36,023 nt of DNA from a virus (IMGVR_UViG_2778261035_000011); one strand, 5' to 3'; numbered from the stretch's first letter, positions 2,791-36,023 are shown. Numbers and translations are program-made. Notes: generated from the letters alone by a model not told the origin.

Positions 2791-2792
2791 CG

Positions 2793-3326: not shown

Positions 3327-3330
3327 GAGA

Positions 3331-3348: not shown

Positions 3349-3354
3349 TAATTT

Positions 3355-3882: not shown

Positions 3883-3885
3883 AAT

Positions 3886-5412
3886 TTACACCTGTGCGAC
3901 GTTATACCATGTGCCATTGATGTATTTTTGTATTGGTCTGAAGATGGCTTCATCATCGCCATCTACTTCACCAATGATTCTTAATCCGGTAATTGCGTGT
4001 CCGGCTTTTTCATAACGACCACCACGCGCCATCAATTGAACAACACGTGTGCCAAGTCGGACATCTCTCACATAGCGTGAGTCAAAATTGCCATAATTGC
4101 CGGGAATAATTTGCGCACCACAAAGCCAGTTACCGTTATTATCCATGTACGCCTGACCATCGGTGCCATTGGACGTCCTCGAATTATTAATCATGTAAAA
4201 ACCAAACTGGTAGTTACCAAGTCCACCGACAAAAAATTTGCGTTCTGCATGGTCTTGTCTTAACAAAGCCTGCGCAGAACTTGTTGATACTGCGTTTCTA
4301 CCAAAAATGACATTCTGGTTTCGCATATCAATCCATGAGGTTGAACCACTATTAATAGCAAACCTGTTTGCATACACCCAGGCGTTAGTTGTTATATCTC
4401 CTGTAACATCCAGACCATGCCCCATAATTATGCGACCAGTTCTGAGATTAAGCGTAAAGGGGCGTAGTGGCCCTATATCACCATTTTCCCCCTCATTCTC
4501 TCGTGTAGGGATGATATGCAGGCATTCTTCAGAACGACGAAAAATGGCACCAAAAGATGAATTAAATATCCTCAGTGCATTGACTGTAGATATTTTTACT
4601 TCACTGCTGAAAAGGGCTTTAACAAGAACATACAGAGCATCCCATTTAAGATTCATCAGGTCTTTTGTTGTGGTGCTCTGGCGACTTCTCCATTTGAAAT
4701 ATTCATTGCCGTTGTCACCTGTTTCAAACCACATATATGAATCAGTATCGCTGTCGGCATCATTTTTAAATCCAATTTTTGCCCAGTCAGTATTTCGAAT
4801 CCAGGCAAGGATTGAGTCGTTTTCAAAAGTAAGCCCGCCGGACAAAGTATCGCCATTTTTTTGCACGGCGTTCCCGGCTCGGTTTACCGTTTCCTGTAAA
4901 CCGACGTTTTGGATAAACAGCGGCTTATTGGGAATATCTGCTCCGTTCCGGTCTTTTGCCAGACGGGCATTGGCATTATCCATCGCAATTTTCACCGCTT
5001 TTGCGGTGGCTGCCAGCGTTTCACTGGGGCTGTCAGTGGCACTGGTTAGCTGAACGAGTCCTTTCTTGTTCAGGCTGGCATCATAAATATCCAGATTTTC
5101 ACGTGCTGTACGCTGTGCTGATGCCCCGGCAGTTTTAATTTCGCTGAGGTTATTTTTTATCAGCAGCGCATTCTTGTTCATGATGGCTTTAATGGACAGT
5201 GCAAGCTGGTTTAATTTTGTTTTATCCGGTTGAATACCGGCTTCTTCCAGCGTGTTTAATAACTCCGCCTGCACAATATTAAACCAGTCCATGCCGGGCC
5301 ATGTGATAACATTATTCCCGTCACCTTCTGAAAACCAGCGAACGATAGCACTACGCTGGGCGGATACGGGCGGCATGACGGTTACGCCGCTGTCGTTATC
5401 AATATAAAACAT
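3886..5412 (-). CDS. S: tail fiber protein S (constant N-terminal part outside G, variable C-terminal part inside G)
   Basis: 508 aa; gixL lies within the coding sequence at the ...PLFIQNVGLQETV segment; position after R in Mu synteny. Confidence 0.85.
   Translation of the reverse strand: MFYIDNDSGVTVMPPVSAQRSAIVRWFSEGDGNNVITWPGMDWFNIVQAELLNTLEEAGIQPDKTKLNQLALSIKAIMNKNALLIKNNLSEIKTAGASAQRTARENLDIYDASLNKKGLVQLTSATDSPSETLAATAKAVKIAMDNANARLAKDRNGADIPNKPLFIQNVGLQETVNRAGNAVQKNGDTLSGGLTFENDSILAWIRNTDWAKIGFKNDADSDTDSYMWFETGDNGNEYFKWRSRQSTTTKDLMNLKWDALYVLVKALFSSEVKISTVNALRIFNSSFGAIFRRSEECLHIIPTRENEGENGDIGPLRPFTLNLRTGRIIMGHGLDVTGDITTNAWVYANRFAINSGSTSWIDMRNQNVIFGRNAVSTSSAQALLRQDHAERKFFVGGLGNYQFGFYMINNSRTSNGTDGQAYMDNNGNWLCGAQIIPGNYGNFDSRYVRDVRLGTRVVQLMARGGRYEKAGHAITGLRIIGEVDGDDEAIFRPIQKYINGTWYNVAQV
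4891..4916. repeat. gixL recombination site inside S
   Basis: Plus strand TTCCTGTAAACCGACGTTTTGGATAA, inverted partner of 2069-2094. Confidence 0.7.
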
Positions 5413-5954
5413 TAGTTATCTCCGTCATGGTAAACAAATTTATAAATCTGATGCGCGGGTTTATATTTCTCCAGTAAACACTCCAGCGCACCCGATTCAT
5501 AAACACGTAACGGCGTCAGAACATTATCCAGCACCGTTGCGTTGCGATAATTTTTAATACCGTAAATATTGACCTGCGTAACCCACTGGCCTTCTGTGGA
5601 ATCCGTCAGCCTGACGGTAAAACCGTACTGCGCAGCCAGCCATTCATAAAAGCGCCGACTCAGATTGCCGGTCATACGCATTTTATTCGCGGCAGCCCGC
5701 TGGCGTTCGGACAGGGTGCCGTTTTCGCTGGTACAGTCCGGCAACCCCAGAAATGATTCCCACTCCCCCAGATACCAGCGGGATGTGGACGGGAAACGCT
5801 CCCGCAGCATTTGCCGCGCATCATCCGCCGCAGTGGCAATCACGTCGCTGATGGCCTGCGCCAGCGCAGATAATTTGCTGTCGGGGCTTTTATTCCAGGC
5901 AAGCCCTGACGGCAGTAATTGCAGAAAGGCCGTCTGATAGGGTGTTACAGCCAT
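5412..5954 (-). CDS. R: tail/baseplate protein R (Mu gp48-like)
   Basis: 180 aa; stop overlaps S start (ATGA-type coupling); position in Mu baseplate module. Confidence 0.7.
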   Translation of the reverse strand: MAVTPYQTAFLQLLPSGLAWNKSPDSKLSALAQAISDVIATAADDARQMLRERFPSTSRWYLGEWESFLGLPDCTSENGTLSERQRAAANKMRMTGNLSRRFYEWLAAQYGFTVRLTDSTEGQWVTQVNIYGIKNYRNATVLDNVLTPLRVYESGALECLLEKYKPAHQIYKFVYHDGDN

Positions 5955-7027
5955 TCAATTGTCCCCGGTGTTAACAGTTCCGTATTCTCCGAACGCTGGA
6001 TCTCTGTCGGGAAACGCACTTCAAAATCATCCAGACCGGTAACACCTGCCACCGCACGGATAATACGGGAGGGGGCAAGTGCGCCGCCCGGCGTCACCTC
6101 ATTAAAAAACATGGTATTAATGGCGTGGGTAATAGCCTGTTTTAGTTCGGCTGTCTTCGGTGATATATAAATCCGTGGATTTACCGGCTTTGCCTTTGGC
6201 GCAAATACAGTGACATTTACACCGTCAGGCTGTCCGACAATCAGACCGGTGATCGGGTCAGTATGACCGGCGATATAATCTGCCACGCGTTCCACGTCTG
6301 CCGGTTGTGGAAAAATATTGCTCCGGTTATCCATAACAAACGTCACCCCGACTGTGCCACCGCCTTTCCATGTCGGAAAACACCAGGCACGGGTAACGCC
6401 GCTGACTTCACGTGCCCAGCGGACGTAATCAAACTGATTACCGCCGAACGGAGGATACTGGACACGATATTCCAGCCGTGACAGCAGCTCCGCTGCACTC
6501 TCAATATCAGCCCCACCGGAAAACCCTTTTACAGTGATGGCATCGGAAACAACACAGGCAACCGGGGTGATCAACGTTAAAAGGGTATTCTCACCGGTAT
6601 TTCCTGCTTCACCGGCAGCCAGTGCGGTAACGGTAATTTCCGTCGTTCCTGCACGGTCAATCACAATGGCATCAGCCAGGCTGTAAACCACACCATCAGC
6701 ACGCTGCCAGCGTGTACCGGCAGGAATGGTGGTCGCTGCCGATGTGGTGACAGTCAGCGGACCGCTGGCGGCTGTCGCCTGTTTGCGGCGCACGCCCCAG
6801 AACCGACAGTGCTCCAGCAACTCATCTTCATCTGCTGTCGACGGGATAATCTGCCGTCCAACCCATGAAATATGCTCGTGACAACCGGCAGCAAGGCCTG
6901 CCTGAGCATAAGCAATGGCACTCAGCGTTTTTTCACGGGCCTGAGGCCAGCTACCCGGCAGGCGCTGTTCAATATTCTGTTCTGTACGGGCAATCAGCGA
7001 TGATAATGTCGGTGGTGAATAAGCCAT
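5945..7027 (-). CDS. W: baseplate J-like protein W (Mu gp47-like)
   Basis: 360 aa; position between V and R in Mu order. Confidence 0.75.
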   Translation of the reverse strand: MAYSPPTLSSLIARTEQNIEQRLPGSWPQAREKTLSAIAYAQAGLAAGCHEHISWVGRQIIPSTADEDELLEHCRFWGVRRKQATAASGPLTVTTSAATTIPAGTRWQRADGVVYSLADAIVIDRAGTTEITVTALAAGEAGNTGENTLLTLITPVACVVSDAITVKGFSGGADIESAAELLSRLEYRVQYPPFGGNQFDYVRWAREVSGVTRAWCFPTWKGGGTVGVTFVMDNRSNIFPQPADVERVADYIAGHTDPITGLIVGQPDGVNVTVFAPKAKPVNPRIYISPKTAELKQAITHAINTMFFNEVTPGGALAPSRIIRAVAGVTGLDDFEVRFPTEIQRSENTELLTPGTIEWL

Positions 7028-7465: not shown

Positions 7466-8055
7466 TGCATTGGCCCCGTGGTTCCGCCGCTGTCGCCACG
7501 GTGGATATGCTTATCCGTCGATTTGCCATTGATGATGGCATCCGGGGCAGTAATATTGCTGTCGAACTGGCTTTTACCTTTAACGCCCAGACCTTTCTGG
7601 ATCTCAACGTCGCCGGTAAACGTGGTTCTGGGGGTGTCAACGGTCATACTTTCATCAGCGTAAACCTCAACCGTTTTACAGGTAATGATGCAGCGTCCGT
7701 CCTTTGTCAGCCGGATACGATGCCCCTCATGGTGGTAAATGCCTGCATCACCCGGTTCAAGATTTGTCGGGCGGTAGCGGCGGTCTTCCACCACAACAGC
7801 AATCCCCTGATCACGTTGTGCGCCCACACAGGCAATCAGCGCCTCTGCGCCAGGCAGAGGAACGCTGAAATGCCCGTAATTTTGCAGGCGCTCCACTTCA
7901 TCAGATTCCTCATCATCCAGCAGACCGACCTGCAGGTTCTGAACCTTTCGCCCGTCGTTAATCACGTTAACAACAGCGCGCGCAAGCATCAGGCGCACAC
8001 GACGCATCAGCGGCGTCAGCAGGCGGTTCAGGGCGGAATCATTTACTCTTTCCAC
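7462..8055 (-). CDS. Q: baseplate spike/assembly protein Q (Mu gp45-like)
   Basis: 197 aa; synteny between P and V. Confidence 0.7.
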   Translation of the reverse strand: MERVNDSALNRLLTPLMRRVRLMLARAVVNVINDGRKVQNLQVGLLDDEESDEVERLQNYGHFSVPLPGAEALIACVGAQRDQGIAVVVEDRRYRPTNLEPGDAGIYHHEGHRIRLTKDGRCIITCKTVEVYADESMTVDTPRTTFTGDVEIQKGLGVKGKSQFDSNITAPDAIINGKSTDKHIHRGDSGGTTGPMQ

Positions 8056-9182
8056 GGCGGCGTTTTCTCCGGGTGTCTGCGATAATAATCTTCAACCAGC
8101 GCATCAATACCGCCGTTACTGTCGCCGCCTTTCCTGTTTTTACGGTCGCTTTCAACCGGCACCAGAAAGCCTTCGCGTGGTGCAAGGCTGACGCGGGTTT
8201 TCAGCCCGTCCTGGTCATTCAGTATCAGGGTGACTTTGCTGACCAGTAATTCCGTGGTTTTGATGGCATATTTCGAGGCATCAATAGTGACCAGCAGGTT
8301 CGGCATCCAGAGTTGCCCGTCCTTGCGAGTCCATCCGTCAATTTCAGCCTCAAAGGTGATGGATTTTGCCAGTCTGCGGCGTTGCTCACGCAGGGCGCGG
8401 GCCTGTGCATCCTTCGCCGTAATTTTGCTGTCAGCAATGATGATCATCGGTCTGTAACGGGTTACATCACTGTCAGTGGCGGTCCCTTTCCGGGAGACGA
8501 TACTTTTCGCATCAATATCATCACCCTCAGCACCGTTTGCGCGGGCATACCCCTTGACGGTGTATTCGCTGAACCGGTCGCGGAAGTCTTCCTCAAAATC
8601 CAGTGTCAGCAGATTTTCTCCGAGAACCAGCTCATCAGTGGCTGTGCTGGCAGCCCGGCTGAATACCAGCTCTCCTGCGGCATTGCTGGTCATCAGTACA
8701 CCGCGTGCGCGGGAGGCACGCACCAGCGCCTCATAAACGGTTTCTGAATGGTCCAGCGTGAAGCCGGGAAAAGCTGCCGAACTTTCCTTATCGGAAAGCT
8801 CCCAGCGAACGGTAACGCCATAAGGGGCGCACAGGTCACGCGCAATCTGCTCCAGTGTGCGGTTTTTCCACTGTCCGCCACTGTAAACGGCAGCACAGTC
8901 AATCAGGTCAGCCGTTTTGTCACGTCCGGCGACAGTGATTTTCATGCTGTCAGCGGTCATCTGGCGTCGCCGCGAATCGATATAACCGGTGCAGACAATC
9001 TGCCCGTCGATTTCCAGCGTGAACGCCTTCCCCGGTGCCAGCCCGGATAAATCTGTACCCGGTGGCACATTCACCCCCAGCTCAAAATATCCGGCTACGG
9101 ATTCAATGGAGCGGGTGACAGAGACTGACGTCCAGCCGGTAAAAAGCCTGCCATCCGTTCGCAGCGTGACGGTATTACTCAT
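8043..9182 (-). CDS. P: tail protein P (Mu gp44-like, baseplate hub)
   Basis: 379 aa; follows N with short overlap. Confidence 0.75.
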
Positions 9183-10662
9183 TAATCACCTCAATACTGA
9201 CACCACCGGGAACAAACAACGGGTTGCTGATACCGTTCCTGCGGGCCAGCCGTTGCCAGTTCCGGCTGTTTCCTGTGTAACGGTACAGAGCCACCATTGC
9301 AGGCATCGTCTCCGGCAGGCGGTGCGTTTCACTGCCCGCCAGTTGCAGCCCGCGTTTTTCCAGGTCGGCAACAACCAGCAGACGCAGTTGCGTAAGCTGA
9401 ACGCTGTCTGTCGAAAAGCCCTGCTCAGATGCCGTCAGAATGACGGTATCCAGCGCTGCCCCCAGCATGGCGGCTGTTTTTCCGATATCGGACACACTTT
9501 CAAATACCGGGGGCGTGGCTGTACCACTGTCTGAAAAGGATACCTGTGAAAAGCCGCCGTCCGGGGTTATGGCAGTTAACTGTAACTGTCCCTGTGTGAC
9601 GGTAGCGGATGTGCTGCTGGCCCCGCTGGCTGTGCCGGTTGTGGTGGACGGGGCATCCAGTACAGGTGCACGGGCGGCATTATCCATCCGGCGACTGAAA
9701 TCCAGTGCCGCAGTCAGTGCCTGGCTTGCTGCCTCCGCCCGGTATGTCTGTGCTGCTGCCAGCATGACGTAGTTCAGTGTGGCAATATTTTTTTCTGCAA
9801 CCGGACTGTTGTACGAGGTTGTGATTGTCCCCTGTCTGCCTGCGGTGGCGGCATGGCGACGTTCGAATCGCTGCGCCAGACGGTTCCATGTGGAAAATGC
9901 TGTCCGGGTATCGCATAACGATGAAACGCCGGACAGCGCCCCCATCAGCGAGGAGGCCAGCATGGCAGGCTGGTTAATCAGGCTGGTCACAGAGCCTTTC
10001 ATCGCAGAAAGCGATCCCATCAGACCGCTGACAGTCTGCGTAACCCCCAGATTGTCCACCGCATCACTGATATCATCGATGACACCGGTTACAGCTTCCA
10101 TCACGGCGGTTGCCGCCGCAGTGCCATCTTTTACGGTCTGCCAGACAGAGGACAGCGTATCTCCCAGAGAACCGGTTACAGCAACGGCCTGTGCCGGTAC
10201 GGCTGCACTGGTGTCTGTCTCTGCGTCCGGGGCAGTATCCTGCAACGACGGATAAACGGTAACGGTGAACGCGTAATAATTCAGTTCATCCGCTTTAGTG
10301 CGGCATTCCCATGAATCCACCATGACGTCCACAGTGCCGAAATCAGGATGTACCAGCTCACCGCTACCCGGAGCATCAAGAGCATCCATCAGCGCACCCG
10401 CTTCATCTCTGGCTGTTTCTGCGTTGCTGTTCAGAATGCAGGCGCTGAATGTACGGGAGCGAAGCTTTTTCCCCAGGTCATTGACGCCGCCGGTATCACG
10501 TAACGGGTACTCGAGTTTAACCAGGCGACGTCCGCCAGCCTGTTTTTGCTCCTCGATGACGAGAAACGGCACGTTACGAAACGTGCCTTTGCCGGTTGTT
10601 TTCTTACCACCGCTGATTTTATCCCGGACAGCATTAACGGCATTTAAAGCATCTTCAAACAT
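9175..10662 (-). CDS. N: DNA circularization protein N (Mu gp43-like)
   Basis: 495 aa; directly downstream of the tape measure gene, as in Mu. Confidence 0.8.
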
Positions 10663-23978: not shown

Positions 23979-24569
23979 TCATGCCTTACCCAGCAGCACA
24001 TCACGGATACGCTGCTCCAGCTCTTCGCTGATGCCATCCTGCCCGCGCAGTTCTTCACTGACGGCGTTTGCCGCTTCTTCTGCGAATGCCTGGCGGATTT
24101 CTTTCTCGCGCCGGTGGCTGGACATTGCCGTGGATTCCAGACGCTGTGCCGCCAGCATGGCATTTTTCAGCAGGTCAATATCCACGTCAGATTCCGGGTT
24201 TTCGATTTGCCGCATCATGGCCTTAAAAAGCTGGCTTCGGGCCATTTCCAGAATCAGCTTTGTGGTTTCTCCCATTGGCTTGTCGCCAAGTTCTGCGGTC
24301 AGTGCTGACGTCATTTCACGCATCTGTCGCAGGTTATGGCCTACCTGCTCGACGTTCGTCGCGTAACGGTTCAGACCGGAACGGGAGAGTTTCATCTCAT
24401 CCGGCAGGCCAGCGTCTTTAATCAGTGCGTTAATTTCTTCCAGAATGCGGGCCTGTGGGATCGCTTTATCACGCAGCATTTCATGCAGCGTTTTACGTAC
24501 GTTTTCCGGCAGTAAATCCACTTTTGAAGCCCGGCCCCGTGTTTTCCTGTCCATCACGCCTCCTGTCAT
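23979..24569 (-). CDS. D: terminase small subunit-like protein D (Mu gp27-like)
   Basis: 196 aa; directly upstream of the large terminase gene. Confidence 0.65.
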   Translation of the reverse strand: MTGGVMDRKTRGRASKVDLLPENVRKTLHEMLRDKAIPQARILEEINALIKDAGLPDEMKLSRSGLNRYATNVEQVGHNLRQMREMTSALTAELGDKPMGETTKLILEMARSQLFKAMMRQIENPESDVDIDLLKNAMLAAQRLESTAMSSHRREKEIRQAFAEEAANAVSEELRGQDGISEELEQRIRDVLLGKA

Positions 24570-24856
24570 GCACGGGGACGAGGACGCTTGACACCGGCAA
24601 CGCGGGCACGACCTTCTGCCACATCCTGACCTCGGGAGGTCAGCGTTACGACATAAAAGCCGCGCAGGTTTTCCACGGTGACCAGTTGCTGCTCTGCCAG
24701 CCAGTCAATCTGGCCGCGAACCACATCGCGGGAAACGTTGTGTCCGTATGCATCCAGACAGTCCTGAAGGATGGATTCGTTTGCTTCGTTATTGCAGTCC
24801 ATCAGGGAACGCAGGATGACCAGACGACGGTCTTCGGTCAGAATATCGTTAATCAT
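24566..24856 (-). CDS. hypothetical protein (Mu gp26-like)
   Basis: 96 aa; synteny between lysis genes and terminase genes. Confidence 0.45.
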   Translation of the reverse strand: MINDILTEDRRLVILRSLMDCNNEANESILQDCLDAYGHNVSRDVVRGQIDWLAEQQLVTVENLRGFYVVTLTSRGQDVAEGRARVAGVKRPRPRA

Positions 24857-25152
24857 GAATTACTCCGGTTTACTGCGTTTTCAAGCAGCAGCTCCAGTTG
24901 ATGGGAAAATGACTGCACCCGCTGGGACAGCACCCGGATATCGCCGGACAGCTCTGCAATTCGCAGGCGCATTTCGTGTACATCTTCTGTGCCAGGGATG
25001 CTGGCGTAGCGGGTTTCCATTTCGGTCATCCGGTTTTCAAGACGCTCCACACGCTCAGTGCTGGCAAAACTACGACGCATTGCCCAGACGGCCCCACCGG
25101 CCACAACAGGCAACAGGTAAGGCCATAACGCTAAAACTGAAATCAAATCCAT
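24853..25152 (-). CDS. membrane protein with N-terminal TM helix and coiled coil (Mu gp25-like, possible releasin/lysis regulator)
   Basis: 99 aa from ATG 25152 (MDLISVLALWPYLLPVVAGGAVWA...); position at the end of the lysis cassette. The releasin role is recalled from Mu literature and not verifiable here. Confidence 0.45.
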   Translation of the reverse strand: MDLISVLALWPYLLPVVAGGAVWAMRRSFASTERVERLENRMTEMETRYASIPGTEDVHEMRLRIAELSGDIRVLSQRVQSFSHQLELLLENAVNRSNS

Positions 25153-25346
25153 TATTCTGCTCCACGGCACCAGTGGCAGTAGTTCGCCATCGGCTGCTGT
25201 CTCAGCACATCAGGCCGCAGCTCACGACCGCAACCGGCACACAATACAGGCGGGTCATACGCCGCCGGGCGGGGAATATCACGGGTATCCCCCTGCCAGA
25301 GTTCAGCGAGCAGCAGCGCCACCGCCCGGTTCTGGTCTTCGTTCAT
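25152..25346 (-). CDS. small Cys-containing protein (possible zinc ribbon)
   Basis: 64 aa with CAGC...CHWC; AGGAAAG RBS upstream of ATG 25346; stop overlaps the start of the following gene. Confidence 0.4.
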   Translation of the reverse strand: MNEDQNRAVALLLAELWQGDTRDIPRPAAYDPPVLCAGCGRELRPDVLRQQPMANYCHWCRGAE

Positions 25347-25659
25347 AAATTTCTTTCCTTCGGGTCTCCTGTTCCCGGACTGATGCCTTGTCGCGGTTGC
25401 ACTGCCCGAGCGCCATCAACAGGTCAGCATTCCAGAGAAGGGATGCTCCCCACGTCAGGGGCTGTGGCATGGGCGGAACGGGCGTTGCTTCCGTCAGTTC
25501 TGCATCAGTTTCGGGCAGGATCACCACCGATGGCACGGGTGCGTTTTTCGAGTTCCCGCAACCTGTCAGCAGCAACGGCAGGCACAGGACGAGTGCTGCA
25601 ATTGTCACCGGTAATGGCGGTTGTAATTTTTTGTTTTGCATCATGATGTTCTGTCTCAT
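25303..25659 (-). CDS. outer-membrane spanin-like lipoprotein (o-spanin, Rz1-like)
   Basis: ATG 25659; signal peptide followed by lipobox LLTGC and a Pro-rich mature region; the gene starts inside the i-spanin gene in another frame. Confidence 0.55.
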   Translation of the reverse strand: MRQNIMMQNKKLQPPLPVTIAALVLCLPLLLTGCGNSKNAPVPSVVILPETDAELTEATPVPPMPQPLTWGASLLWNADLLMALGQCNRDKASVREQETRRKEIYERRPEPGGGAAAR

Positions 25660-25891
25660 CTTCCAGCCGCGCGGCACGATTTGCGGCACGGATAGCGGAA
25701 AATACCTGCATCGTCTGTTCCTGACTGTGTAACAACCATTCAGCCGTGTTGCGGGCCTGTTGCTCCGTCTGTAATTCACGGCGCAGCGTCTGGTTATCGT
25801 GGCGGGTGCTGTCCAGCCTGTGCCACAACACCCCGGACAGAACGGCGGCAAACACGGCTGCCAGCAGTAAACTTTTACTGGCGAAGGTCAT
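25505..25891 (-). CDS. inner-membrane spanin-like protein (i-spanin, Rz-like)
   Basis: 128 aa; N-terminal TM helix (LLLAAVFAAVLSGVLW) then charged coiled-coil region; overlaps the lys 3' end. Confidence 0.6.
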   Translation of the reverse strand: MTFASKSLLLAAVFAAVLSGVLWHRLDSTRHDNQTLRRELQTEQQARNTAEWLLHSQEQTMQVFSAIRAANRAARLEDETEHHDAKQKITTAITGDNCSTRPVPAVAADRLRELEKRTRAIGGDPARN

Positions 25892-26393
25892 CCGCCCCCC
25901 TGATATTCCAGATTGCCATTTCCACTTCGCGACGGTTCATCAGTCCTTTCCATTTATGGCCTGCGGCAAACACCCAGCGGGCCATCTGGTCACGCGCTCC
26001 GGCGTAATCACCGGCATTGAGTTTTTTCAGCAGCGTTGATTTACTGAATGCGGTAACACCGGTGTTGAAAATAAACGTTGCCAGCGCCGTTTTCTGATAT
26101 GGCGTCAGCGGCACCCTGACAAGACGATCGATTGCCGCATAAACCGGTTTTAAATCACTGTCGAGAAGAGCCATACACTCCGCATGGCTGTAACGGCGCA
26201 TTTCGATATCCGGCCCGGTATGTCCCACACAGACCGTAAGCACACCGGCAATATCGCGGTAAGGCATATAAGCGATATTTTCCAGATGGATCAGAGACTG
26301 ACGGGTCATTTCCTGATAACCACCCACACCTCCACCGGCAATCGTTGCCGCCAGCAGTGCGGCTTTCAGTTTTTTTGGTATCCCCGCCATCAT
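25875..26393 (-). CDS. lys: endolysin, lysozyme-like with N-terminal signal-anchor-release (SAR) type hydrophobic segment
   Basis: 172 aa; N-terminus KKLKAALLAATIAGGGVGGY is weakly hydrophobic and Gly/Ala-rich, typical of SAR endolysins; first gene after C. Confidence 0.85.
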   Translation of the reverse strand: MMAGIPKKLKAALLAATIAGGGVGGYQEMTRQSLIHLENIAYMPYRDIAGVLTVCVGHTGPDIEMRRYSHAECMALLDSDLKPVYAAIDRLVRVPLTPYQKTALATFIFNTGVTAFSKSTLLKKLNAGDYAGARDQMARWVFAAGHKWKGLMNRREVEMAIWNIRGADDLRQ

Positions 26394-26461
26394 GCTTCCC
26401 TGAAAAAATGCTCTGATGGCAGTCTAAAAAATCAGATGGCAGGTGCGGGATTATGGTGACA
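26394..26461 (-). promoter_or_regulatory. expected C-dependent late promoter Plys (positional)
   Basis: Non-coding gap between the C terminator hairpin and the lys start; no motif verified. Confidence 0.3.
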
Positions 26462-26488
26462 GGAAATAACCGGCAGGATGCCGGTTAT
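26462..26488 (-). terminator. putative intrinsic terminator at the end of C (end of middle transcript)
   Basis: Hairpin AACCGGCA-GGA-TGCCGGTT overlapping the C stop codon, followed on the minus-strand RNA by UUAUUUCCU. Confidence 0.45.
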
Positions 26489-26907
26489 TTCTGGCTTTCA
26501 GGTGAGAACAGATCAGGCTGATGACGTCGTGTATGCAGCTTTCTCTGGCGGGCAATAATCTGGTAGATCTGCGGCTGGGACAGGCGATACTGGCAACGCA
26601 GTTCTTCCATGTTACGACCATTGAACTGGCAGTAAAGCAAATCGTCGCGTAACGCGGTCAGGATCGTATCGCCGCAGGGGATGTAAAACTGCCGTCCCCC
26701 CAGAAAACAGGACAGGGCAACGGCCTGTTTACGGGCAAGCTCACGGGGATTGCTGACGTTCTGGCGTTTCAGTTCGTTTTCCAGAACATCAATCAGATCA
26801 ACCACCGAACGGGGCCAGCGTGATTCCAGTTCCGGGGCCGGGATGTTATCAATATGTCCGATTAACTGGCGAATTGCCGGATCGTGTTCAAATAAATCAT
26901 GCTGCAT
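26485..26907 (-). CDS. C: late gene transcriptional activator C (Mor/C family)
   Basis: 140 aa; clear paralogue of the Mor ORF at 27700..28089 (shared ...FNGRN..EL...Y..S...IY.I. C-terminal HTH region); immediately upstream of the lysis/late genes. Confidence 0.85.
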   Translation of the reverse strand: MQHDLFEHDPAIRQLIGHIDNIPAPELESRWPRSVVDLIDVLENELKRQNVSNPRELARKQAVALSCFLGGRQFYIPCGDTILTALRDDLLYCQFNGRNMEELRCQYRLSQPQIYQIIARQRKLHTRRHQPDLFSPESQK

Positions 26908-26919
26908 ATTTTCCCCCGG

Positions 26920-27039
26920 TTAACAGACAGAAAGATACACCACGGCACTGATGGTTATCAGAACCACAAGGGCAATCACTTTTATCGCACTCATCAGCGT
27001 GGACGGCCCGAAACATTCATCACTGAATTTTCTGTACAT
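26920..27039 (-). CDS. possible 39-aa single-TM membrane peptide (not in the supplied ORF track)
   Basis: ATG at 27039 with AAGGGG RBS; translation MYRKFSDECFGPSTLMSAIKVIALVVLITISAVVYLSVC; fills the gap between the membrane protein gene and C. Confidence 0.3.
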   Translation of the reverse strand: MYRKFSDECFGPSTLMSAIKVIALVVLITISAVVYLSVC

Positions 27040-27048
27040 GGTGCCCCT

Positions 27049-27411
27049 TTACCCGAACAGACGAGCGCGAAAACGAAAGGAGAGCCAGAACGTCAGCAAT
27101 CCGGCCAGCGCCCAGATGACATGCTCAGGACCCGTTTTCAGTTGAGACGTTACCATCACGGCTAATCCCAGCCCGGACAGACTCCCCAGCCAGGTCAGCG
27201 GCCAGACGAACCGGGCAAAATGTTCAGGCACCCGGCAGCTCATTATCAGCGCATCCAGACAATCACCGGCAACACATAAAGCAACACTGAAAACCGAGGC
27301 ACAGCAAAACATCAGCGCGCGCCAGCCACAAAACAGACTTATCCACAATAACAGCGCCAGTAACACCACCGATAAAAAATCAGGCCACTGACGAGCAGAA
27401 CGCTCAGACAT
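27049..27411 (-). CDS. multi-pass membrane protein in middle operon (holin-like candidate)
   Basis: 120 aa from ATG 27411 (GGGAG RBS); several hydrophobic helices; the track's longer start is a TTG. Confidence 0.5.
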   Translation of the reverse strand: MSERSARQWPDFLSVVLLALLLWISLFCGWRALMFCCASVFSVALCVAGDCLDALIMSCRVPEHFARFVWPLTWLGSLSGLGLAVMVTSQLKTGPEHVIWALAGLLTFWLSFRFRARLFG

Positions 27412-27622
27412 AATGTTTCTCCCTGTAAAGCAGGCAATGATGAAGAATTTCCGGCATATCAACTGACTGCCAGCCTTTCATGTAATAACTGCCGTGGGTG
27501 CCATCATGACCGGTATAGTCGCGGGGCGCAGGACGTGGCCCACCGGCGACACGGTGCAAAACCTCCTGACGCAGCCGCTCACGTCTGCCAAGATGAAAGG
27601 ATGCATTCCAGCCTTTACCCAT
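27404..27622 (-). CDS. hypothetical protein, first gene of middle operon
   Basis: 72 aa; ATG 27622 with GGGGGA RBS; lies just downstream of the early terminator. Confidence 0.45.
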   Translation of the reverse strand: MGKGWNASFHLGRRERLRQEVLHRVAGGPRPAPRDYTGHDGTHGSYYMKGWQSVDMPEILHHCLLYREKHYV

Positions 27623-27669
27623 GATGATTTCCCCCGGTACGGTTATTCATCACAGGATATTGAGGACGT
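27623..27669 (-). promoter_or_regulatory. expected Mor-dependent middle promoter Pm (positional)
   Basis: Short gap between the early-operon terminator and the first middle-operon gene; Mu Pm is recalled to lie just after the early terminator; no motif verified. Confidence 0.35.
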
Positions 27670-27694
27670 AAAAAAAGCCGGATTAACCGGCTTT
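27670..27694 (-). terminator. rho-independent terminator of the early operon, immediately after mor
   Basis: Minus-strand RNA AAAGCCGG-UUAAU-CCGGCUUU followed by a 7-U tract (plus-strand A run 27670-27676); 6 nt downstream of the mor stop. Confidence 0.7.
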
Positions 27695-27699
27695 ACTGT

Positions 27700-28089
27700 T
27701 TACAGAAGTGAGGGCTGGTACTGGCGGTATTTCAGCCGTCGCATCCGGCGAATGGCCTTGTAAACCGTATTGAAAGTGACACCATAACGGGTGGTCAGTT
27801 CGCTGACGTTGCGACCGTTAAAATCATTCCAGATACGCAAATCCCGAATCAGCGAGTCCAGAACCTGACCGCGTGGAATGTAGACCTGACCGCCGCCCAG
27901 ATGCTTACAGATAGCCACAACAATCTCCAGTGAATGGGCAGGATCAACACCCAGCCGGGACAATTCCCCGCGTAGTAAATCGTTCAGCTCCGCCAGCAGT
28001 GCCGGAAAGCGTGACGTATCCTCTGCGGGATTGTCAAGATGTGCCAGGATGGTGTCATCCTGCAAATCACCAAATAAATCTTCCGTCAT
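27700..28089 (-). CDS. mor: middle operon regulator Mor (Mor/C family transcription activator)
   Basis: 129 aa; paralogous to C (26485..26907); last gene before the early terminator, as in Mu. Confidence 0.85.
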   Translation of the reverse strand: MTEDLFGDLQDDTILAHLDNPAEDTSRFPALLAELNDLLRGELSRLGVDPAHSLEIVVAICKHLGGGQVYIPRGQVLDSLIRDLRIWNDFNGRNVSELTTRYGVTFNTVYKAIRRMRRLKYRQYQPSLL

Positions 28090-28637
28090 TGTGCCATCCT
28101 CCGTGTCTTTCTGGCATGGGCATAAGCCGCCGTCATGGCATCATAGCCGCGCAGTTCACGACCGGACGGACTGACCGGCAATGGAAGCCCGTGACGGGAA
28201 AAGGCTTCACGAATACAGCGGATGTGCCACTGCTTGAGTGTTTCGAGGACTGTCAGCAGCGTGTCGCCATGACACCACGCCAGTGTGGAAACGCCCTGTC
28301 CGCCGTTGCGTTTCGCGGTCAGGCGCTGAACATATTTATCCAGCGCCACATCACCGCCATCGGCAATAAAACCGTCTTCTGCCATCTGCTGCCAGATTTT
28401 ATACACCTTCTCACGGGGCGTGACATGCCCCTTAAAGCGGCGACGGGGGTATTTATTCTGCTTCTTAAAGCCGCGTTCTTTCATGGCACCGAGCACCTGT
28501 TCCAGTTGCGTGACCGTCAGCTCGCGGCAACTGATTTTGCCTGTTTTCTGCATCAGAAAAGCGCGGTAAGTGTCATCGTCGAGTTGTAGTTCCCGACGGG
28601 CGACATGGATTAATTTAATCAGGGATGTGCGACTCAT
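28086..28637 (-). CDS. gemA: GemA-like regulatory protein (Mu gp16 family)
   Basis: 183 aa from ATG 28637 (GGAGG RBS); immediately upstream of and overlapping mor, as in Mu. Confidence 0.7.
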   Translation of the reverse strand: MSRTSLIKLIHVARRELQLDDDTYRAFLMQKTGKISCRELTVTQLEQVLGAMKERGFKKQNKYPRRRFKGHVTPREKVYKIWQQMAEDGFIADGGDVALDKYVQRLTAKRNGGQGVSTLAWCHGDTLLTVLETLKQWHIRCIREAFSRHGLPLPVSPSGRELRGYDAMTAAYAHARKTRRMAQ

Positions 28638-28740
28638 GATCGTACCTCCGGAAAGGGGGCGGTGCTGCAACACCGCCTGAATTTACACATCAATCAGAGT
28701 GGATTTTATGGAAAATAATGTTTTAGTTTCATTATTCATA

Positions 28741-33086: not shown

Positions 33087-35093
33087 TTAAATGGCTTTTT
33101 TACGTCTGTTCTGTTCCAGAATATCCAGCGAATGATTCAGATATTCATCACGCTCAGTTTCGTATTCATCATCACGCTCCTGATTCTTCACCCGTTCCAT
33201 ATTACCGGAAGGCCGGAAAATGCCGACAATTCGTGATTCTGGTGCTTCAGGTTCGGCTATCTGCGGCAGCAGCTCTGCCACTTCCAGTGCATCCATTTGT
33301 TTCTGTGCCTTAATCGCTGCTTTCGTCGCAGATTTCAGTTGTTTCTGGCGGCGGCGATATTCACGGCCTGCCGCAGCATCATTAAACGCAACAGGTGACA
33401 GACATTCCGCTTCACAGATAAACCGACCGTCCAGGGTGTAGCAATAAACCGTGCTGTGTAACTGCTGTGGATCAAATCTGACCACAACTTTTTTCACTCC
33501 GGCATTCATTAACGCCATGTTGTAATAAACGTTTTTCGCACCTTTAAGGGAGCCGCCAACTTTAAGCGCGAACTCGCCTTTACGTGAAACGTTCACCGCC
33601 TCGGCAGGCAGTAACAGCATCCGTTTTTGCTCTTCGGTAGGCTTACGCACAATCGTTCTGGCGTATTCACGCTCAAAAACGTCATCAAACGAAAGTTTGC
33701 CTCCGCACATTTCTGTTTCACGGCCTGTTCTGGCATTGAACATCGCCACACCTTCGGCAAGGGTTTTCAGAAACAGCTCTGCATCAACAGCGCGGTCGCC
33801 ATAGTTATCAGGTTTTGCCTGCGGATTAGGCCCCGTATATGCGCCAGCCAGTGCCGGATGCTTATCAACGTATTCCTCAAGCCCACCAACACCGAAAGCA
33901 CGTTCAACAGGTTTTGCCTGGCCCCAGCCTTTACCGGCAACAACGCTTGTCCAGTGCATTTTCGCCCCCATCAGTAAAAACAGTCCTTTTGGATCGTCCT
34001 CTTTTACCTTAAAGCGGTAGCGATTGGGCGCGCCTCCCGTCAGCCATTTATTCGCAGCACCACGGGTGTTATCAATGGTGATGTGAAAATCCTCCGGGAT
34101 ACCGTAGCGAGTCACAACATCCATGAACGAGAGGCGAATTGAATCAATGTTCTCGCTCACATCGCAGCGCCAGCCCAGAATTTTTCGGGTTTTCACATCC
34201 TGCCAGAACCATGTTTTCGGGCGGATCACATCACCGTTAAACCAGCGTACAAAGACGTTATGCAGATAACCGTCGCCGTTGATCCACTGCATGGCGTCCA
34301 GGTGTTCCACAGTTCGTTGTTGTGCCGGTATCAGATGCATCAGTGCATGTTCACCTTCACGGCAGGCAACAACCATTGCCTCGTTCAGTTGCTGAATCCG
34401 GCGAAAGGCCGTGGCACGGGAGGGAATACTCCAGCCATGCTCGCGGGCTGCCAGTTCCAGACGCTCATAACATTTGCGGAAGGCGGGTTTTTCCGGTCGC
34501 AGATAATCTGCAATCAGAAACTGCCAGGCATCCTCGTCAAATTCACTTTTGTGAACATTGCGACGGGATGCACCACGTCCATCAACAAGAGCAGCCGCCC
34601 AGTCAGGCTTCGCAAACTTCTGTACCTGGTAATACTTGTCACGCAAAGTGGATGCGCTGACCTGGTAATGTCCTGCAACGGTCGCAAAAGCCGTTTTTGT
34701 TGAAATCCCCTGGTTCAGCATTTCGTCTGCGGCCTGAACCGCAGGCAACCATTTTTCAGCAAGTCTGCGCTGGGAATCGCTGGCGTTATCCCATTTGCTC
34801 CACAGCGCCTCGCGATCATAATCGTGGGCTTCCAGCGTGGGGCGGGCGATTTCAAAACGGCCCATGCTTGTTTCAATCTCTCCTTGTCTAAGCAATAACG
34901 CAGCTTGCGTTTCCTTTGGTAAAGATGAGATATGAAACTCATAGGCTACTCCTCTTACCCCGTGTATCTGTCGAAACACCCACTGTTCTAACCTTGCTTT
35001 ACGAGAGATCGCGCTAGAGGATTTTGGAAGACCTATCAGCCCTTCTAATTTCTTTGCAGAAAACCAATCATTACATTGTGGTTGCATTTTCAA
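33087..35093 (-). CDS. A: DDE transposase MuA
   Basis: 668 aa; N-terminal DNA-binding domain homologous to the repressor N-terminus in this window; long central catalytic core; acidic C-terminal tail ending NRRKKAI. Confidence 0.95.
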
Positions 35094-35317
35094 TACCTCG
35101 AAGGCCAGAGGTCTCGTGGCTCAACTCCCAATGCATCGGCAATAATTCTTTCACCCCGAGGGTAAGGTTTATCCAAGGCATTTTTTACCGTAGAGATAGA
35201 GAGACCGTTCTCACGACCAAGAGCTGCTAGGCTTTTTCCTCTTTTGCGCAGATCAGCAACAATGTCGTATCTGCTTTTGTCTTCACATTTACTTTTCTTT
35301 ATCGCCATAAAATGCAA
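35090..35317 (-). CDS. ner: Ner-like DNA-binding regulator (negative regulator of repressor and early transcription)
   Basis: 75 aa; ...[38 protein letters not shown] matches the Ner/Nlp family signature; divergent from c across the operator region. Confidence 0.85.
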
Positions 35318-35504
35318 TCCTCACAAGCTACGCCATCAGCTACGCCGCAAGGTAGCTGACAAGGTATGCAGCAATGTTAGTGTGAATACATTGTCAATGC
35401 AATGATGTATTCAAATATTTCGTTTGAATTTCATCTATCTTGATGATTTTAAAATGAATATATTTTTGTTTCTTTGAATACATGGTGTATTTAAAGCGAG
35501 GTTT
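35318..35504. promoter_or_regulatory. operator / divergent promoter region between ner and c (expected Pe, Pc and transposition enhancer)
   Basis: AT-rich 187-bp gap with repeated TGAATA(CA) motifs in both orientations (35384-35390, 35406-35413 inverted, 35424-35429, 35453-35458, 35475-35482). Confidence 0.6.
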
Positions 35505-36023
35505 GTGATGACACAAGAATGGTTTTCAGCTAAAGAGCTACAAGGGGTTGCTGGTCTTCCGTCTTCAGCAAGTAGTATTAGCCGCAAAGCAACTAATGAG
35601 GGATGGAAAAAGAGACAGATCAAAGGAGTAAAGGGAGTTGCTTATGAATACCATATCAGCTCATTACCTGATGCCACTCAGGCAGAATTAGGAGGGGCGC
35701 AGTTATTAGATAGCGATAAGCCAGCTTATAAGTTAGCTTCTGTGTTAATGGCTTTGGTCGCAGAGTTAGAACCAGAGGAAATCCAGAGGGCATTAAAGCT
35801 ACTTAGTAAAGGCGGACTTGGAGCACTAATGCCAAGTATCTTTGATCAGACTCAAATCCAATCTCTGCACGGCGTATCGCGTGAGTGCATACAACTAGCC
35901 CAAATGCTAGAAACTTTACCAGCAGATGCGCGCAAAGAGATTTTGTCAGAGTATGGTATTCATGAACAGGAAGGTTTTGTAGCTCCTTCACAAGAACCAC
36001 AAGATGTAAAAAAAGCCGTATAA
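35505..36023 (+). CDS. c: Mu-type repressor c
   Basis: 172 aa; N-terminal domain shares long identical stretches with the MuA N-terminus here (WFSAKEL.G..GLP.S.S.ISRKA; GV.GVAYE.HISSLP); C-terminus ...[28 protein letters not shown]; divergent from ner. Confidence 0.9.

What the first reader, a model, noticed from the sequence alone, without database searches (positions are those of the whole stretch)
24853..27411. Lysis cassette with SAR-type endolysin, overlapping spanins and membrane proteins but no obvious canonical holin
The endolysin has a weakly hydrophobic Gly/Ala-rich N-terminus. The o-spanin gene (lipobox LLTGC) starts inside the i-spanin gene. A 99-aa TM protein closes the cassette. 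The only holin-like candidates are small membrane proteins in the middle operon upstream of C (27049..27411 and a 39-aa TM peptide at 26920..27039 not in the ORF track).
Basis: partly seen in the sequence, partly recalled or inferred. Interest (0 to 1): 0.45.

Follow-up and report, generated by a model that had tools for sequence, protein, structure and literature searches.

The report
Phage Mu holin-less lysis cassette
This is the lysis gene cluster of a phage Mu/D108-type virus, and the missing holin is real but already explained: a 2022 study showed that Mu has no holin and uses the 99-aa membrane protein gp25 ("releasin") to free its membrane-tethered lysozyme.

Summary
The window is a Muvirus genome read on its minus strand, 98.8% identical to Mu and 99.0% to D108 across this region.

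Gene assignments:
- 25875-26390: gp22, the SAR endolysin. It is identical to D108 Lys and differs from Mu only by V15A.
- 25505-25891 and 25303-25644: gp23 and gp23.1, the overlapped i-/o-spanin pair (lipobox LLTGC).
- 25152-25346: gp24, a small Cys4 protein.
- 24853-25152: gp25 (DUF2730), 100% identical to the Mu releasin.
- 27049-27411 and 26920-27039: gp19 and gp20, middle-operon genes upstream of C.

The absence of a canonical holin is the published conclusion for Mu (Chamblee et al. 2022, mBio, PMC9239132). In that study gp19, gp20 and gp25 all failed the holin depolarisation test, and gp25 was required to release gp22.

My checks add the following:
- No other membrane-protein gene in the window is a holin candidate.
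- No holin-family match was found for gp19, gp20 or gp25.
- Gene 19 is naturally deleted in SfMu, PhiR68_1 and Yersinia Mu-like phages.
- Genes 18-20 are absent from the loci of three more distant relatives that keep gp22 to gp26.

Verdict: already known, low interest. How the releasin works, and what gp24 does, remain open.

The parts
25875..26390 (-). gp22 (Lys), SAR endolysin. GH24 lysozyme with an N-terminal signal-anchor-release domain (about residues 10-25), preceded by K6, K7 and K9.
   Evidence: Pfam PF00959, E 1e-37. Triad E37/D46/T52, and a SAR core with 5 Gly and 5 Ala. Best 19-residue KD window 1.05, below the TM threshold. Identical to D108 Lys; V15A versus Mu. Best solved relatives are RrrD 4zpu and phage 21 R21 3hde, with the alignment running into the N-terminal region. 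SAR behaviour was shown for Mu gp22.
25505..25891 (-). gp23, i-spanin (inner-membrane spanin subunit). N-terminal TMD at about residues 7-23, helical periplasmic domain, Cys98.
   Evidence: PHROG 214 'Rz-like spanin', E 7e-35. TMD KD 1.93-2.28. 6 aa differences from Mu gp23. The spanin-defect phenotype was shown for Mu.
25303..25644 (-). gp23.1, o-spanin (outer-membrane lipoprotein subunit). Lipobox LLTG|C29; 85-aa Pro-rich mature part. The gene overlaps gp23 by 140 nt in the +1 frame.
   Evidence: Pfam PF23793 LysC, E 7.7e-15, 55 bits against a cut-off of 27. PHROG spanin families. Overlap geometry, 10 Pro and Cys82. Annotated as o-spanin Mu_55 in AF083977.
25152..25346 (-). gp24, a 64-aa protein with a conserved CxxC...CxxC motif. 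Function unknown. It overlaps the 3' end of the o-spanin gene by 44 nt and its stop abuts the gp25 start.
   Evidence: Identical in Mu, D108 and the window. C36, C39, C57 and C60 are invariant in relatives at 44-61% identity. No family match above cut-off. PHROG 3260, unknown function. Not mentioned as gp24 or gene 24 in the Mu lysis paper; gp22 + gp25 alone gave lysis from plasmids.
24853..25152 (-). gp25, releasin (DUF2730). N-terminal TMD (residues 3-25), an R26-R27 junction and a 74-aa helical cytoplasmic domain. Required for release of the SAR endolysin.
   Evidence: 100% amino-acid identity to Mu gp25. PF10805, 50.4 bits against a cut-off of 24.9. TMD KD 1.84. Invariant W23, RR, FASTERVE and HQxELLLENAVN motifs in 15 homologues. 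AF2 model is all-helical but of low confidence. The Mu 25::cam lysis defect and gp22 + gp25 sufficiency are published.
26401..26467 (-). Plys, the C-activated late promoter that drives gp22 to gp25 and the downstream head genes.
   Evidence: Mapped from the Mu annotation, 10403-10469. The alignment with Mu and D108 has 98% mean column identity.
26464..26487 (-). Predicted intrinsic terminator after gene C. It separates the middle operon (genes 18, 19, 20 and C) from the late lys operon.
   Evidence: TransTermHP feature in AF083977. The hairpin AACCGGCATCCTGCCGGTTATTT is invariant in the window, Mu and D108.
26485..26907 (-). C, the late-gene transcription activator (Mor/C family). It switches on Plys.
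   Evidence: Pfam PF08765 Mor, E 1.4e-32. 3 aa differences from Mu C.
26920..27039 (-). gp20, a 39-aa single-TMD protein of the middle operon. Not a holin; function unknown.
   Evidence: TMD KD 2.77. 2 aa differences from Mu gp20. No holin-family match. Negative DNP test and dispensability were reported for Mu. No homologue in loci L004-L006.
27049..27411 (-). gp19, a 120-aa multi-TMD, Cys-rich protein of the middle operon. Not a holin; function unknown.
   Evidence: Hydrophobic segments. 2 aa differences from Mu gp19. No family match beyond PHROG 4975, unknown function. Window 27039-27407 is deleted in SfMu and PhiR68_1. Negative DNP test in Mu.
27637..27707 (-). Pm, the Mor-activated middle promoter that drives genes 18, 19, 20 and C.
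   Evidence: Mapped from Mu 9163-9233. The aligned stretch differs from Mu at one position and is identical to D108.

Best explanation
The region is the lysis module of a Mu/D108-type transposable phage and works as the published holin-less Mu pathway.

1. Mor activates Pm, so genes 18, 19, 20 and C are transcribed.
2. C activates Plys, so gp22, gp23, gp23.1, gp24, gp25 and the downstream head genes are transcribed as one tightly overlapping late operon.
3. gp22 is exported by Sec. It stays tethered to the inner membrane in an inactive form through its weak Gly/Ala-rich SAR helix, held in place by the cytoplasmic Lys6-Lys7.
4. gp25 is a type I (N-out, C-in) membrane-tethered, helical cytoplasmic protein. 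It promotes escape of the SAR helix into the periplasm without depolarising the membrane.
5. Released gp22 refolds and degrades the peptidoglycan.
6. The gp23/gp23.1 spanin complex then disrupts the outer membrane.

No holin is involved, and gp19 and gp20 are accessory middle-operon membrane proteins unrelated to lysis.

Shown experimentally for identical or near-identical Mu proteins:
- The SAR nature of gp22.
- The requirement for gp25 and the K6/K7 dependence.
- The spanin phenotype.
- The non-holin behaviour of gp19, gp20 and gp25.

Inferred here: that all of this transfers to the window, by sequence identity and conserved promoters.

Unresolved: the molecular mechanism of gp25. I favour a non-covalent route (charge masking of, or chaperoning of, the basic N-terminus) over proteolysis. 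gp25 is predicted to consist only of long helices, and it acts on unrelated SAR endolysins.
For: - Identity: the region is 98.8% identical to Mu and 99.0% to D108. There is gene-for-gene correspondence; gp24, gp25 and gp26 are identical and gp22 differs from Mu only by V15A. Position 15 varies naturally (A/V/I) among relatives, whereas K6 is invariant.
- Families: Phage_lysozyme, LysC and DUF2730 are above Pfam cut-offs, and both spanin subunits match PHROG spanin families.
- Hydropathy: gp22's N-terminus is sub-threshold and Gly/Ala-rich, while gp23, gp23.1 and gp25 have true hydrophobic segments.
- Solved structures: gp22 aligns from residue 5 with the phage 21 SAR endolysin R21 (3hde) and with RrrD.
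- Regulation: Pm, Plys and the terminator after C are conserved, which places gp19 and gp20 on the middle transcript and gp22-gp25 on the late one.
- Published experiments (PMC9239132): 25::cam abolishes timely lysis and chloroform rescues it; gp22 + gp25 suffice for lysis; K6A or K7A removes the gp25 dependence; a pinholin can release gp22; DNP does not trigger gp19, gp20 or gp25 and delays Mu lysis; 23.1am gives spherical cells that lambda RzRz1 rescues.
- No other candidate: a whole-window scan of 394 ORFs finds no further genuine membrane protein except a signal-peptide protein at 1-447.
- Comparative: gp22-gp23-gp23.1-gp24-gp25-gp26 is conserved in three loci whose gp25 is 65-66% identical, and those loci lack genes 18-20. 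Gene 19 is precisely deleted in SfMu and PhiR68_1.
Against: - Nothing in the sequence contradicts this explanation.
- No experiment has been done on this particular phage variant.
- The V15A change makes the SAR core slightly less hydrophobic (mean KD 1.33 against 1.48 in Mu). In principle this could loosen its dependence on gp25, although D108 carries the same residue.
- The gp25 structural model is of low confidence (pLDDT 62.5), so my argument against a protease fold is weak.
- For the distant relatives only 10-kb loci were inspected, so gp19/gp20 homologues elsewhere on those contigs are not excluded.
Confidence: 0.93

Rival explanations
1. gp19 (multi-TMD) and gp20 (one TMD) form the holin/antiholin pair, and the cassette is a conventional holin-endolysin-spanin system with the holin displaced upstream of C. 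2021.
For: Both are small membrane proteins close to the endolysin. Apart from gp23, gp23.1 and gp25, they are the only TMD proteins of the phage.
Against: - They lie upstream of a conserved terminator and of Plys, on the Mor-dependent middle transcript.
- Induced gp19, gp20, or both together are not lethal after DNP, unlike lambda S105 and S21-68.
- They match no holin family in Pfam, PHROGs or NCBIfam.
- Gene 19 is deleted in SfMu and PhiR68_1, and from the coverage pattern probably also in several Yersinia Mu-like phages.
- Genes 18-20 have no homologue in three diverged Mu-like loci that keep gp22-gp26.
Confidence: 0.02
2. gp25 is itself a holin or pinholin: a small late-expressed membrane protein that depolarises the membrane and thereby releases the SAR endolysin, as S21-68 does for R21.
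For: It is a small single-TMD protein encoded in the late lysis operon just downstream of the endolysin and spanins. It is required for gp22 release. gp22 can be released by a genuine pinholin.
Against: - gp25 expression has no effect on growth and is not lethal after DNP triggering.
- DNP delays Mu lysis rather than triggering it.
- It has one TMD with only about 4 periplasmic residues and a 74-aa charged helical cytoplasmic domain, unlike known pinholins.
- Among homologues the invariant residues lie in the cytoplasmic domain and at the RR junction, while the TMD sequence varies.
- The requirement for gp25 is removed by K6A or K7A in gp22, which points to a charge problem and not to a need to collapse the proton motive force.
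Confidence: 0.03
3. The N-terminus of gp22 is an ordinary cleaved Sec signal peptide. The endolysin is simply secreted, and lysis timing is set only by expression level.
For: The n-region is basic, the h-region is short, and small residues (G-V-G-G) could fit a signal-peptidase site (sequence). The 25::cam mutant does eventually lyse, at about 3 h.
Against: - gp22 alone does not lyse cells at physiological levels.
- It is released by chloroform, by a pinholin or by gp25.
- Single K-to-A changes on the cytoplasmic side make it autonomous.
- These behaviours fit a membrane-tethered SAR form, not a constitutively cleaved one.
- The N-terminal region aligns with the SAR region of the structurally characterised R21 endolysin.
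- Its hydrophobicity is below that of the true signal peptides in the same window: 1.05-1.33 against 2.26 for gp23.1.
Confidence: 0.02

Closest known systems
Phage Mu lysis system: gp22 SAR endolysin, gp23/gp23.1 spanins, gp25 releasin (Chamblee et al. 2022, mBio 13:e00813-22; GenBank AF083977)
   Same: Same genes in the same order, with the same overlaps and promoters. gp24, gp25 and gp26 are identical in amino-acid sequence. gp22 matches at 170 of 171 residues, with K6, K7, K9 and the E37/D46/T52 triad intact.
   Different: There are a handful of substitutions: V15A in the SAR core, 6 in gp23, 5 in gp23.1 and 2 each in gp19 and gp20. The surrounding genome is a mosaic, with a D108-like right end and a PhiR68_1-type immunity region.
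Phage D108 lysis region (NC_013594)
   Same: This is the closest full match: 99.0% DNA identity, with gp22, gp24, gp25 and gp26 identical.
   Different: The D108 record does not annotate the o-spanin and names gp25 only 'DUF2730 family protein'. gp23 differs at 5 residues and gp23.1 at 2.
Phage 21 pinholin S21-68 / SAR endolysin R21 system, and the E. coli DLP12 endolysin RrrD
   Same: gp22 is a homologue of R21 and RrrD (E about 1e-37), with the alignment running into the N-terminal SAR region. The Mu ortholog can be released by S21-68.
   Different: Phage 21 controls release with a pinholin that depolarises the membrane. Here there is no (pin)holin, and release depends on a non-lethal DUF2730 protein. 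The gp22 SAR core is unusually Gly-rich (5 of 16 residues).
Phage P2 LysB/LysC, the overlapped two-component spanin class
   Same: The o-spanin matches Pfam 'Rz1-like lysis system protein LysC'. Its gene starts inside the i-spanin gene in the +1 frame and extends beyond it. From my own knowledge of the spanin classification, this is the overlapped architecture.
   Different: Sequence similarity of the i-spanin to characterised Rz or LysB proteins is weak: Pfam DUF2570 is below its cut-off. P2 also encodes a holin; this cassette does not.

Membership tests
SAR (signal-anchor-release) endolysin, R21/GH24 type | Muralytic catalytic domain with the E-x8-D-x5-T lysozyme triad | tested here: met
   PF00959, E 1e-37. 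E37, D46 and T52 found. Homology to R21 and RrrD structures.
SAR (signal-anchor-release) endolysin, R21/GH24 type | N-terminal, weakly hydrophobic, Gly/Ala/Ser/Thr-rich uncharged stretch preceded by basic residues | tested here: met
   K6, K7 and K9, then AALLAATIAGGGVGGY (5 Gly, 5 Ala). Best 19-residue KD window 1.05, against 1.8-2.8 for true TMDs.
SAR (signal-anchor-release) endolysin, R21/GH24 type | Sec-exported, membrane-tethered and inactive, releasable by pinholin or depolarisation, and not removed by signal peptidase | not testable with these tools
   Shown for Mu gp22, which differs by one residue: release by S21-68 and by chloroform.
Releasin (DUF2730 type I, Mu gp25) | Full-length match to Pfam PF10805 / sequence similarity to Mu gp25 | tested here: met
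   50.4 bits against a cut-off of 24.9, although the match covers only residues 25-94. 100% identity to Mu gp25.
Releasin (DUF2730 type I, Mu gp25) | Single N-terminal TMD, N-out/C-in, with a twin-Arg (or Arg-Lys) junction and a cytoplasmic C-terminal domain | tested here: met
   Uncharged residues 3-25, KD 1.84. R26-R27 invariant in 15 homologues. 74-aa charged domain with 12 D+E and 11 K+R. The topology itself is inferred from the positive-inside rule.
Releasin (DUF2730 type I, Mu gp25) | [quoted passage not shown] | tested here: met
   It is the fourth gene after gp22, in an unbroken chain of overlapping genes. The same position is seen in L004-L006.
Releasin (DUF2730 type I, Mu gp25) | Required for release and activation of the SAR endolysin without being lethal or depolarising | not testable with these tools
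   Shown for the identical Mu protein.
Two-component spanin (overlapped architecture) | i-spanin: N-terminal TMD plus a helical periplasmic domain | tested here: met
   TMD at residues 7-23. PHROG 214 Rz-like spanin, E 7e-35.
Two-component spanin (overlapped architecture) | o-spanin: lipoprotein signal with a lipobox Cys, a short Pro-rich mature part, no Asp at +2 | tested here: met
   LLTG|C29-G30. 85-aa mature part with 10 Pro. PF23793 LysC above cut-off.
Two-component spanin (overlapped architecture) | The o-spanin gene starts within the i-spanin gene in another frame and ends beyond it | tested here: met
   Start offset 247 nt (+1 frame), 140-nt overlap, 202 nt beyond.
Holin / pinholin (considered for gp19, gp20, gp25) | Match to a known holin family | tested here: not met
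   No holin family in Pfam, PHROGs or NCBIfam for gp19, gp20 or gp25. Holins are very diverse, so this evidence is weak on its own.
Holin / pinholin (considered for gp19, gp20, gp25) | Expressed from the late lysis transcript | tested here: not met
   Not met for gp19 and gp20: they lie upstream of the conserved terminator and Plys, under Pm. Met for gp25.
Holin / pinholin (considered for gp19, gp20, gp25) | Lethal hole formation that can be triggered prematurely by membrane depolarisation | not testable with these tools
   Published negative result for Mu gp19, gp20 and gp25, singly and together; DNP delays Mu lysis.
Holin / pinholin (considered for gp19, gp20, gp25) | Conserved together with the endolysin across related phages | tested here: not met
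   Gene 19 is absent from SfMu and PhiR68_1. Genes 18-20 are absent from loci L004-L006. gp25, in contrast, is always present.

The most novel reading that the evidence does not exclude
The cassette may hold one more, uncharacterised lysis component. gp24 is a 64-aa protein with an invariant CxxC...CxxC motif, wedged between the o-spanin and the releasin with overlapping reading frames. It is co-conserved with them in relatives where it is only 42-63% identical. It could be a cytoplasmic zinc-binding partner or timer of the releasin; the Mu paper itself allows for an 'indirect, unknown partner'. Alternatively, the naturally variable SAR position 15 (A here and in D108, V in Mu, I in relatives) could tune how strongly release depends on gp25.
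Probability: 0.12. Interest if true: 0.4.

Novelty: already known. Interest (0 to 1): 0.1.

Why it matters
Mu-type lysis is a real exception to the holin-endolysin-spanin rule for phages of Gram-negative bacteria, because timing is set at the step of SAR endolysin release and not by a holin. That exception was established in 2022 on proteins identical or nearly identical to those in this window, so the finding adds only another natural variant. What remains of value is this:

- Natural gene-19 deletions and gene 18-20 absences are independent comparative support that those membrane proteins are not lysis genes.
- Two questions are still open: the mechanism of the releasin and the role of the co-conserved gp24.

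Tried and rejected
1. Holin elsewhere in the window. I scanned all 394 ORFs of at least 30 aa on both strands for a 19-residue Kyte-Doolittle window of 1.6 or more. Forty-eight ORFs passed. Most lie antisense to, or inside, longer conserved genes and are spurious. The genuine ones are gp19, gp20, gp23, gp23.1 and gp25, an internal segment of the large conserved gene at 5945-7027, and the gene at 1-447. That last protein has a classical Sec signal peptide (MKKSKLLISTIISLFVLTASSVNHA|QE) and is not a holin.

2. gp25 structure. An AlphaFold2 run on a 15-sequence alignment gave pLDDT 62.5 and pTM 0.24. Only the secondary structure is usable: helix 10-49, loop 50-54, helix 55-98. I did not run fold search because matches to a low-confidence model are meaningless.

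3. Solved relatives of DUF2730. A profile search of the PDB gave only chance hits, mostly to coiled-coil or helical segments, all with E above 0.09.

4. Later work on the releasin mechanism. A full-text search for 'releasin' and 'DUF2730' from 2021 onward found only the 2022 paper and papers that cite it, with no mechanistic follow-up. The 2026 PNAS paper on Mu C and the beta clamp does not deal with lysis.

5. Function of gp19, gp20, gp24 and gp26. Pfam, NCBIfam and PHROGs gave only 'unknown function' families, or hits below cut-off.

6. Exact source of the window. No phage or complete E. coli genome in the collections matches the cassette at 100% (best 99.4%). The immunity region is 100% identical to PhiR68_1 and to E. 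coli 22KM0354. I did not pursue this further.

Full report
**What the window is.** The stretch 24500-28100 is 99.0% identical to Escherichia phage D108 and 98.8% to phage Mu, in reverse orientation. Local BLAST shows that the whole window is collinear with both genomes. Window 4598-28677 matches D108 32321-8243 at 98.8%. The exceptions are:
- a divergent G-segment/tail-fibre region (2292-4275, 85-89% identical);
- a short replacement at 28678-28721;
- an immunity region (about 34926-35903) unlike either reference, though window 34850-36023 is 100% identical to phage PhiR68_1.

The window is therefore a mosaic Muvirus genome running from the D108-type gene 56 to the repressor gene. The same lysis cassette, at 95% identity or more, occurs as a chromosomal prophage in 41 of 5,426 complete E. 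coli genomes.

| Gene | Window coordinates | Difference from Mu |
|---|---|---|
| gp19 | 27049-27411 | 2 aa |
| gp20 | 26920-27039 | 2 aa |
| C | 26485-26907 | 3 aa |
| gp22 | 25875-26390 | 1 aa (V15A) |
| gp23 | 25505-25891 | 6 aa |
| gp23.1 | 25303-25644 | 5 aa |
| gp24 | 25152-25346 | identical |
| gp25 | 24853-25152 | identical |
| gp26 | 24566-24856 | identical |

- **Family assignments:** these agree with the mapping. Pfam gives Phage_lysozyme (E 1e-37), LysC (E 7.7e-15), DUF2730 (50.4 bits against a cut-off of 24.9) and Mor for C. PHROGs places gp23 and gp23.1 in spanin families.
- **Endolysin N-terminus:** hydropathy confirms it is 'weakly hydrophobic, Gly/Ala-rich'. The best 19-residue Kyte-Doolittle window is 1.05. 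The uncharged core AALLAATIAGGGVGGY has 5 Gly and 5 Ala and a mean of 1.33. The TMDs of gp19, gp20, gp23 and gp25 and the signal sequence of gp23.1 score 1.8-2.8.
- **Spanin overlap:** the o-spanin gene starts 247 nt inside the i-spanin gene in the +1 frame, overlaps it by 140 nt and continues 202 nt beyond. This is the overlapped architecture. The lipobox is LLTG|C29.
- **Gene packing:** gp22/gp23 overlap by 17 nt, gp23.1/gp24 by 44 nt, gp24/gp25 by 1 nt and gp25/gp26 by 4 nt. This packing is consistent with translational coupling in a single late operon.

**What it is and how it works.** Working with Mu, they showed the following.

1. gp22 is a SAR endolysin. It is non-lytic alone but is released by the phage 21 pinholin and by chloroform.
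2. gp23 and gp23.1 are the spanin subunits. Amber mutants give spherical cells, and lambda RzRz1 rescues them.
3. None of the membrane proteins gp19, gp20 or gp25 behaves as a holin. There is no lethality after DNP triggering, singly or together, and DNP delays lysis of induced Mu lysogens.
4. Deletion of gene 25 abolishes timely lysis, whereas gp22 + gp25 together suffice for it.
5. The dependence on gp25 is conferred by the basic residues at positions 6 and 7 of gp22.
6. gp25 also helps unrelated SAR endolysins to escape the membrane.

They named gp25 a 'releasin' and concluded that Mu is a holin-less phage.

The window's gp25 is identical to Mu's. Its gp22 keeps K6, K7, K9 and the E37/D46/T52 triad, and is identical to the Lys protein of D108. 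The Pm and Plys promoters and the terminator after C are essentially unchanged. The mechanism therefore transfers by identity. This step is inference, but a very strong one.

**Independent evidence gathered here.**

- **No hidden holin.** A scan of all 394 ORFs of at least 30 aa finds no further genuine membrane-protein gene. The one exception is the D108 gene-56 homologue at 1-447, which carries a typical cleavable Sec signal peptide.
- **No holin family.** gp19, gp20 and gp25 match no holin family in Pfam, PHROGs or NCBIfam.
- **Natural deletion of gene 19.** In SfMu and PhiR68_1, window 27039-27407, almost exactly gene 19, is missing, while gp20, gp22 and gp25 are retained at 90-100% identity. 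The 89-90% two-piece coverage of several Yersinia Mu-like phages suggests the same deletion, but I did not inspect those records.
- **Distant relatives.** Three contig loci whose gp25 is 65-66% identical keep the block lysozyme, i-spanin, overlapped lipobox o-spanin, gp24, DUF2730 and gp26. tblastn identities to the window proteins range from 42% for gp24 to 88% for gp26. These loci have no homologue of gp18, gp19 or gp20. Only 10 kb of each contig was examined.
- **SAR region in relatives.** Their endolysins keep a basic, Gly-rich SAR-like N-terminus. K6 is invariant, and position 15 is A, V or I, so the V15A difference from Mu lies within natural variation.
- **Solved structures.** gp22's best matches are RrrD (4zpu) and the phage 21 SAR endolysin R21 (3hde), with E about 1e-37. 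The alignment starts at residue 5, inside the SAR region.

**The releasin mechanism.** This is still unresolved. The 2022 paper offers three models: proteolytic removal of the basic N-terminus, charge neutralisation or a transient hydrophilic channel, or an unknown host partner. No later mechanistic paper is in the searchable library.

My alignment of 15 type-I homologues shows that the TMD varies in sequence. In contrast, W23, R26-R27, F29-A-S-T-E-R-V-E36 and H84-Q-x-E-L-L-L-E-N-A-V-N95 are invariant. The AlphaFold2 model is of low confidence (pLDDT 62.5), but it predicts only two long helices joined by the conserved SIPGT loop. No solved structure is related.

A 74-residue helical hairpin is an unlikely serine protease, and gp25 acts on SAR domains with no common sequence. 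I therefore favour a non-covalent, membrane-proximal charge-masking or chaperone role. This is inference, not demonstration.

**Rivals.** Three alternatives were considered, each contradicted by the published experiments on the Mu orthologues. For the first, the comparative data above also count against it.
- gp19/gp20 act as a holin/antiholin pair.
- gp25 is a pinholin.
- The gp22 N-terminus is an ordinary cleaved signal peptide.

Together I give them under 10%.

**Comparison with what is known, and verdict.** The cassette is a member of the Mu gp22/gp23/gp23.1/gp25 lysis system, not merely similar to it. It meets every sequence-level defining feature of a SAR endolysin, a DUF2730 type-I releasin and an overlapped two-component spanin. 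The functional features were demonstrated on identical or near-identical proteins.

Novelty: already known. Interest is low. What remains open is the releasin mechanism and the function of the co-conserved Cys4 protein gp24. The four cysteines C36, C39, C57 and C60 are invariant. The Mu lysis paper does not mention gp24 by name.

Noticed in passing
window 1-447 (-); L004 2770-3144, L005 2828-3220, L006 2750-3142: A homologue of the 'D108-specific protein' gene 56 lies at the far right end of the phage. It is a 148-aa protein with a classical Sec signal peptide (MKKSKLLISTIISLFVLTASSVNHA|QE) and belongs to PHROG 15648, unknown function. Homologues about 60% identical sit at a completely different position, between gemA and C, in three diverged Mu-like contigs. 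This suggests a mobile accessory ('moron') gene for a secreted protein.
   Followed up: partly
window 27039-27407 versus SfMu (L007) and PhiR68_1 (L008): Gene 19 (multi-TMD, Cys-rich) is cleanly absent from SfMu and PhiR68_1. From the coverage pattern, it is probably also absent from several Yersinia pestis Mu-like phages. In SfMu and PhiR68_1 the C-terminus of gp18 is altered and extended at the deletion joint. Gene 19 is therefore a dispensable, variably present middle-operon gene.
   Followed up: yes
window 34926-35903 (c repressor 35505-36023 +, ner-like 35090-35317 -): The immunity/early-control region resembles neither Mu nor D108. Window 34850-36023 is 100% identical to phage PhiR68_1 and to a prophage of E. 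coli 22KM0354. The rest of the genome is Mu/D108-like, so the window is a heteroimmune mosaic.
   Followed up: partly
window 28678-28721: A 44-bp stretch replaces Mu 7673-8148 (476 bp: the end of gene 14 plus Mu_54) and about 610 bp of D108. This is a deletion or replacement in the semi-essential early region just upstream of gemA.
   Followed up: no
window 2095-4597: The invertible G-segment/tail-fibre region is the most divergent late region. Window 2292-4275 is only 85-89% identical to Mu and D108, and 2095-2291 and 4276-4597 gave no BLAST match. This points to different S/U or S'/U' host-range determinants.
   Followed up: no
window 25152-25346 (-): gp24 is a 64-aa protein with an invariant CxxC-x17-CHxC motif. 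It is identical in Mu, D108 and the window, is conserved in all relatives examined, and is embedded between the o-spanin and the releasin with overlapping frames. Its function is unknown and the Mu lysis paper does not mention it by name. PhiR68_1 annotates its ortholog as 'TraR/YbiI family'.
   Followed up: partly
window 26388-26393 (-): The endolysin ORF begins with two adjacent ATG codons (ATGATGGCG), conserved in Mu and D108. The Mu annotation uses the second ATG. Whether both starts are used is unknown. The two products would differ only by one Met, so no charge difference of the kind seen in the lambda S dual-start motif is expected.
   Followed up: no
L004 2150-3760, L005/L006 2175-3765: Within the 10 kb examined, the diverged Mu-like contigs carry only one Mor/C-family gene. 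It is C-like, at 59-73% identity to C against 34-38% to Mor. They have no gene 18-20 block, which suggests a simpler middle/late regulatory layout than in Mu.
   Followed up: partly
window 24771-25646 (+): A 291-aa ORF runs antisense across gp25, gp24 and gp23.1. It is the longest ORF in the region. It lies opposite genes conserved with Mu and is most likely a spurious GC-rich antisense frame. It was not tested for homologues.
   Followed up: no
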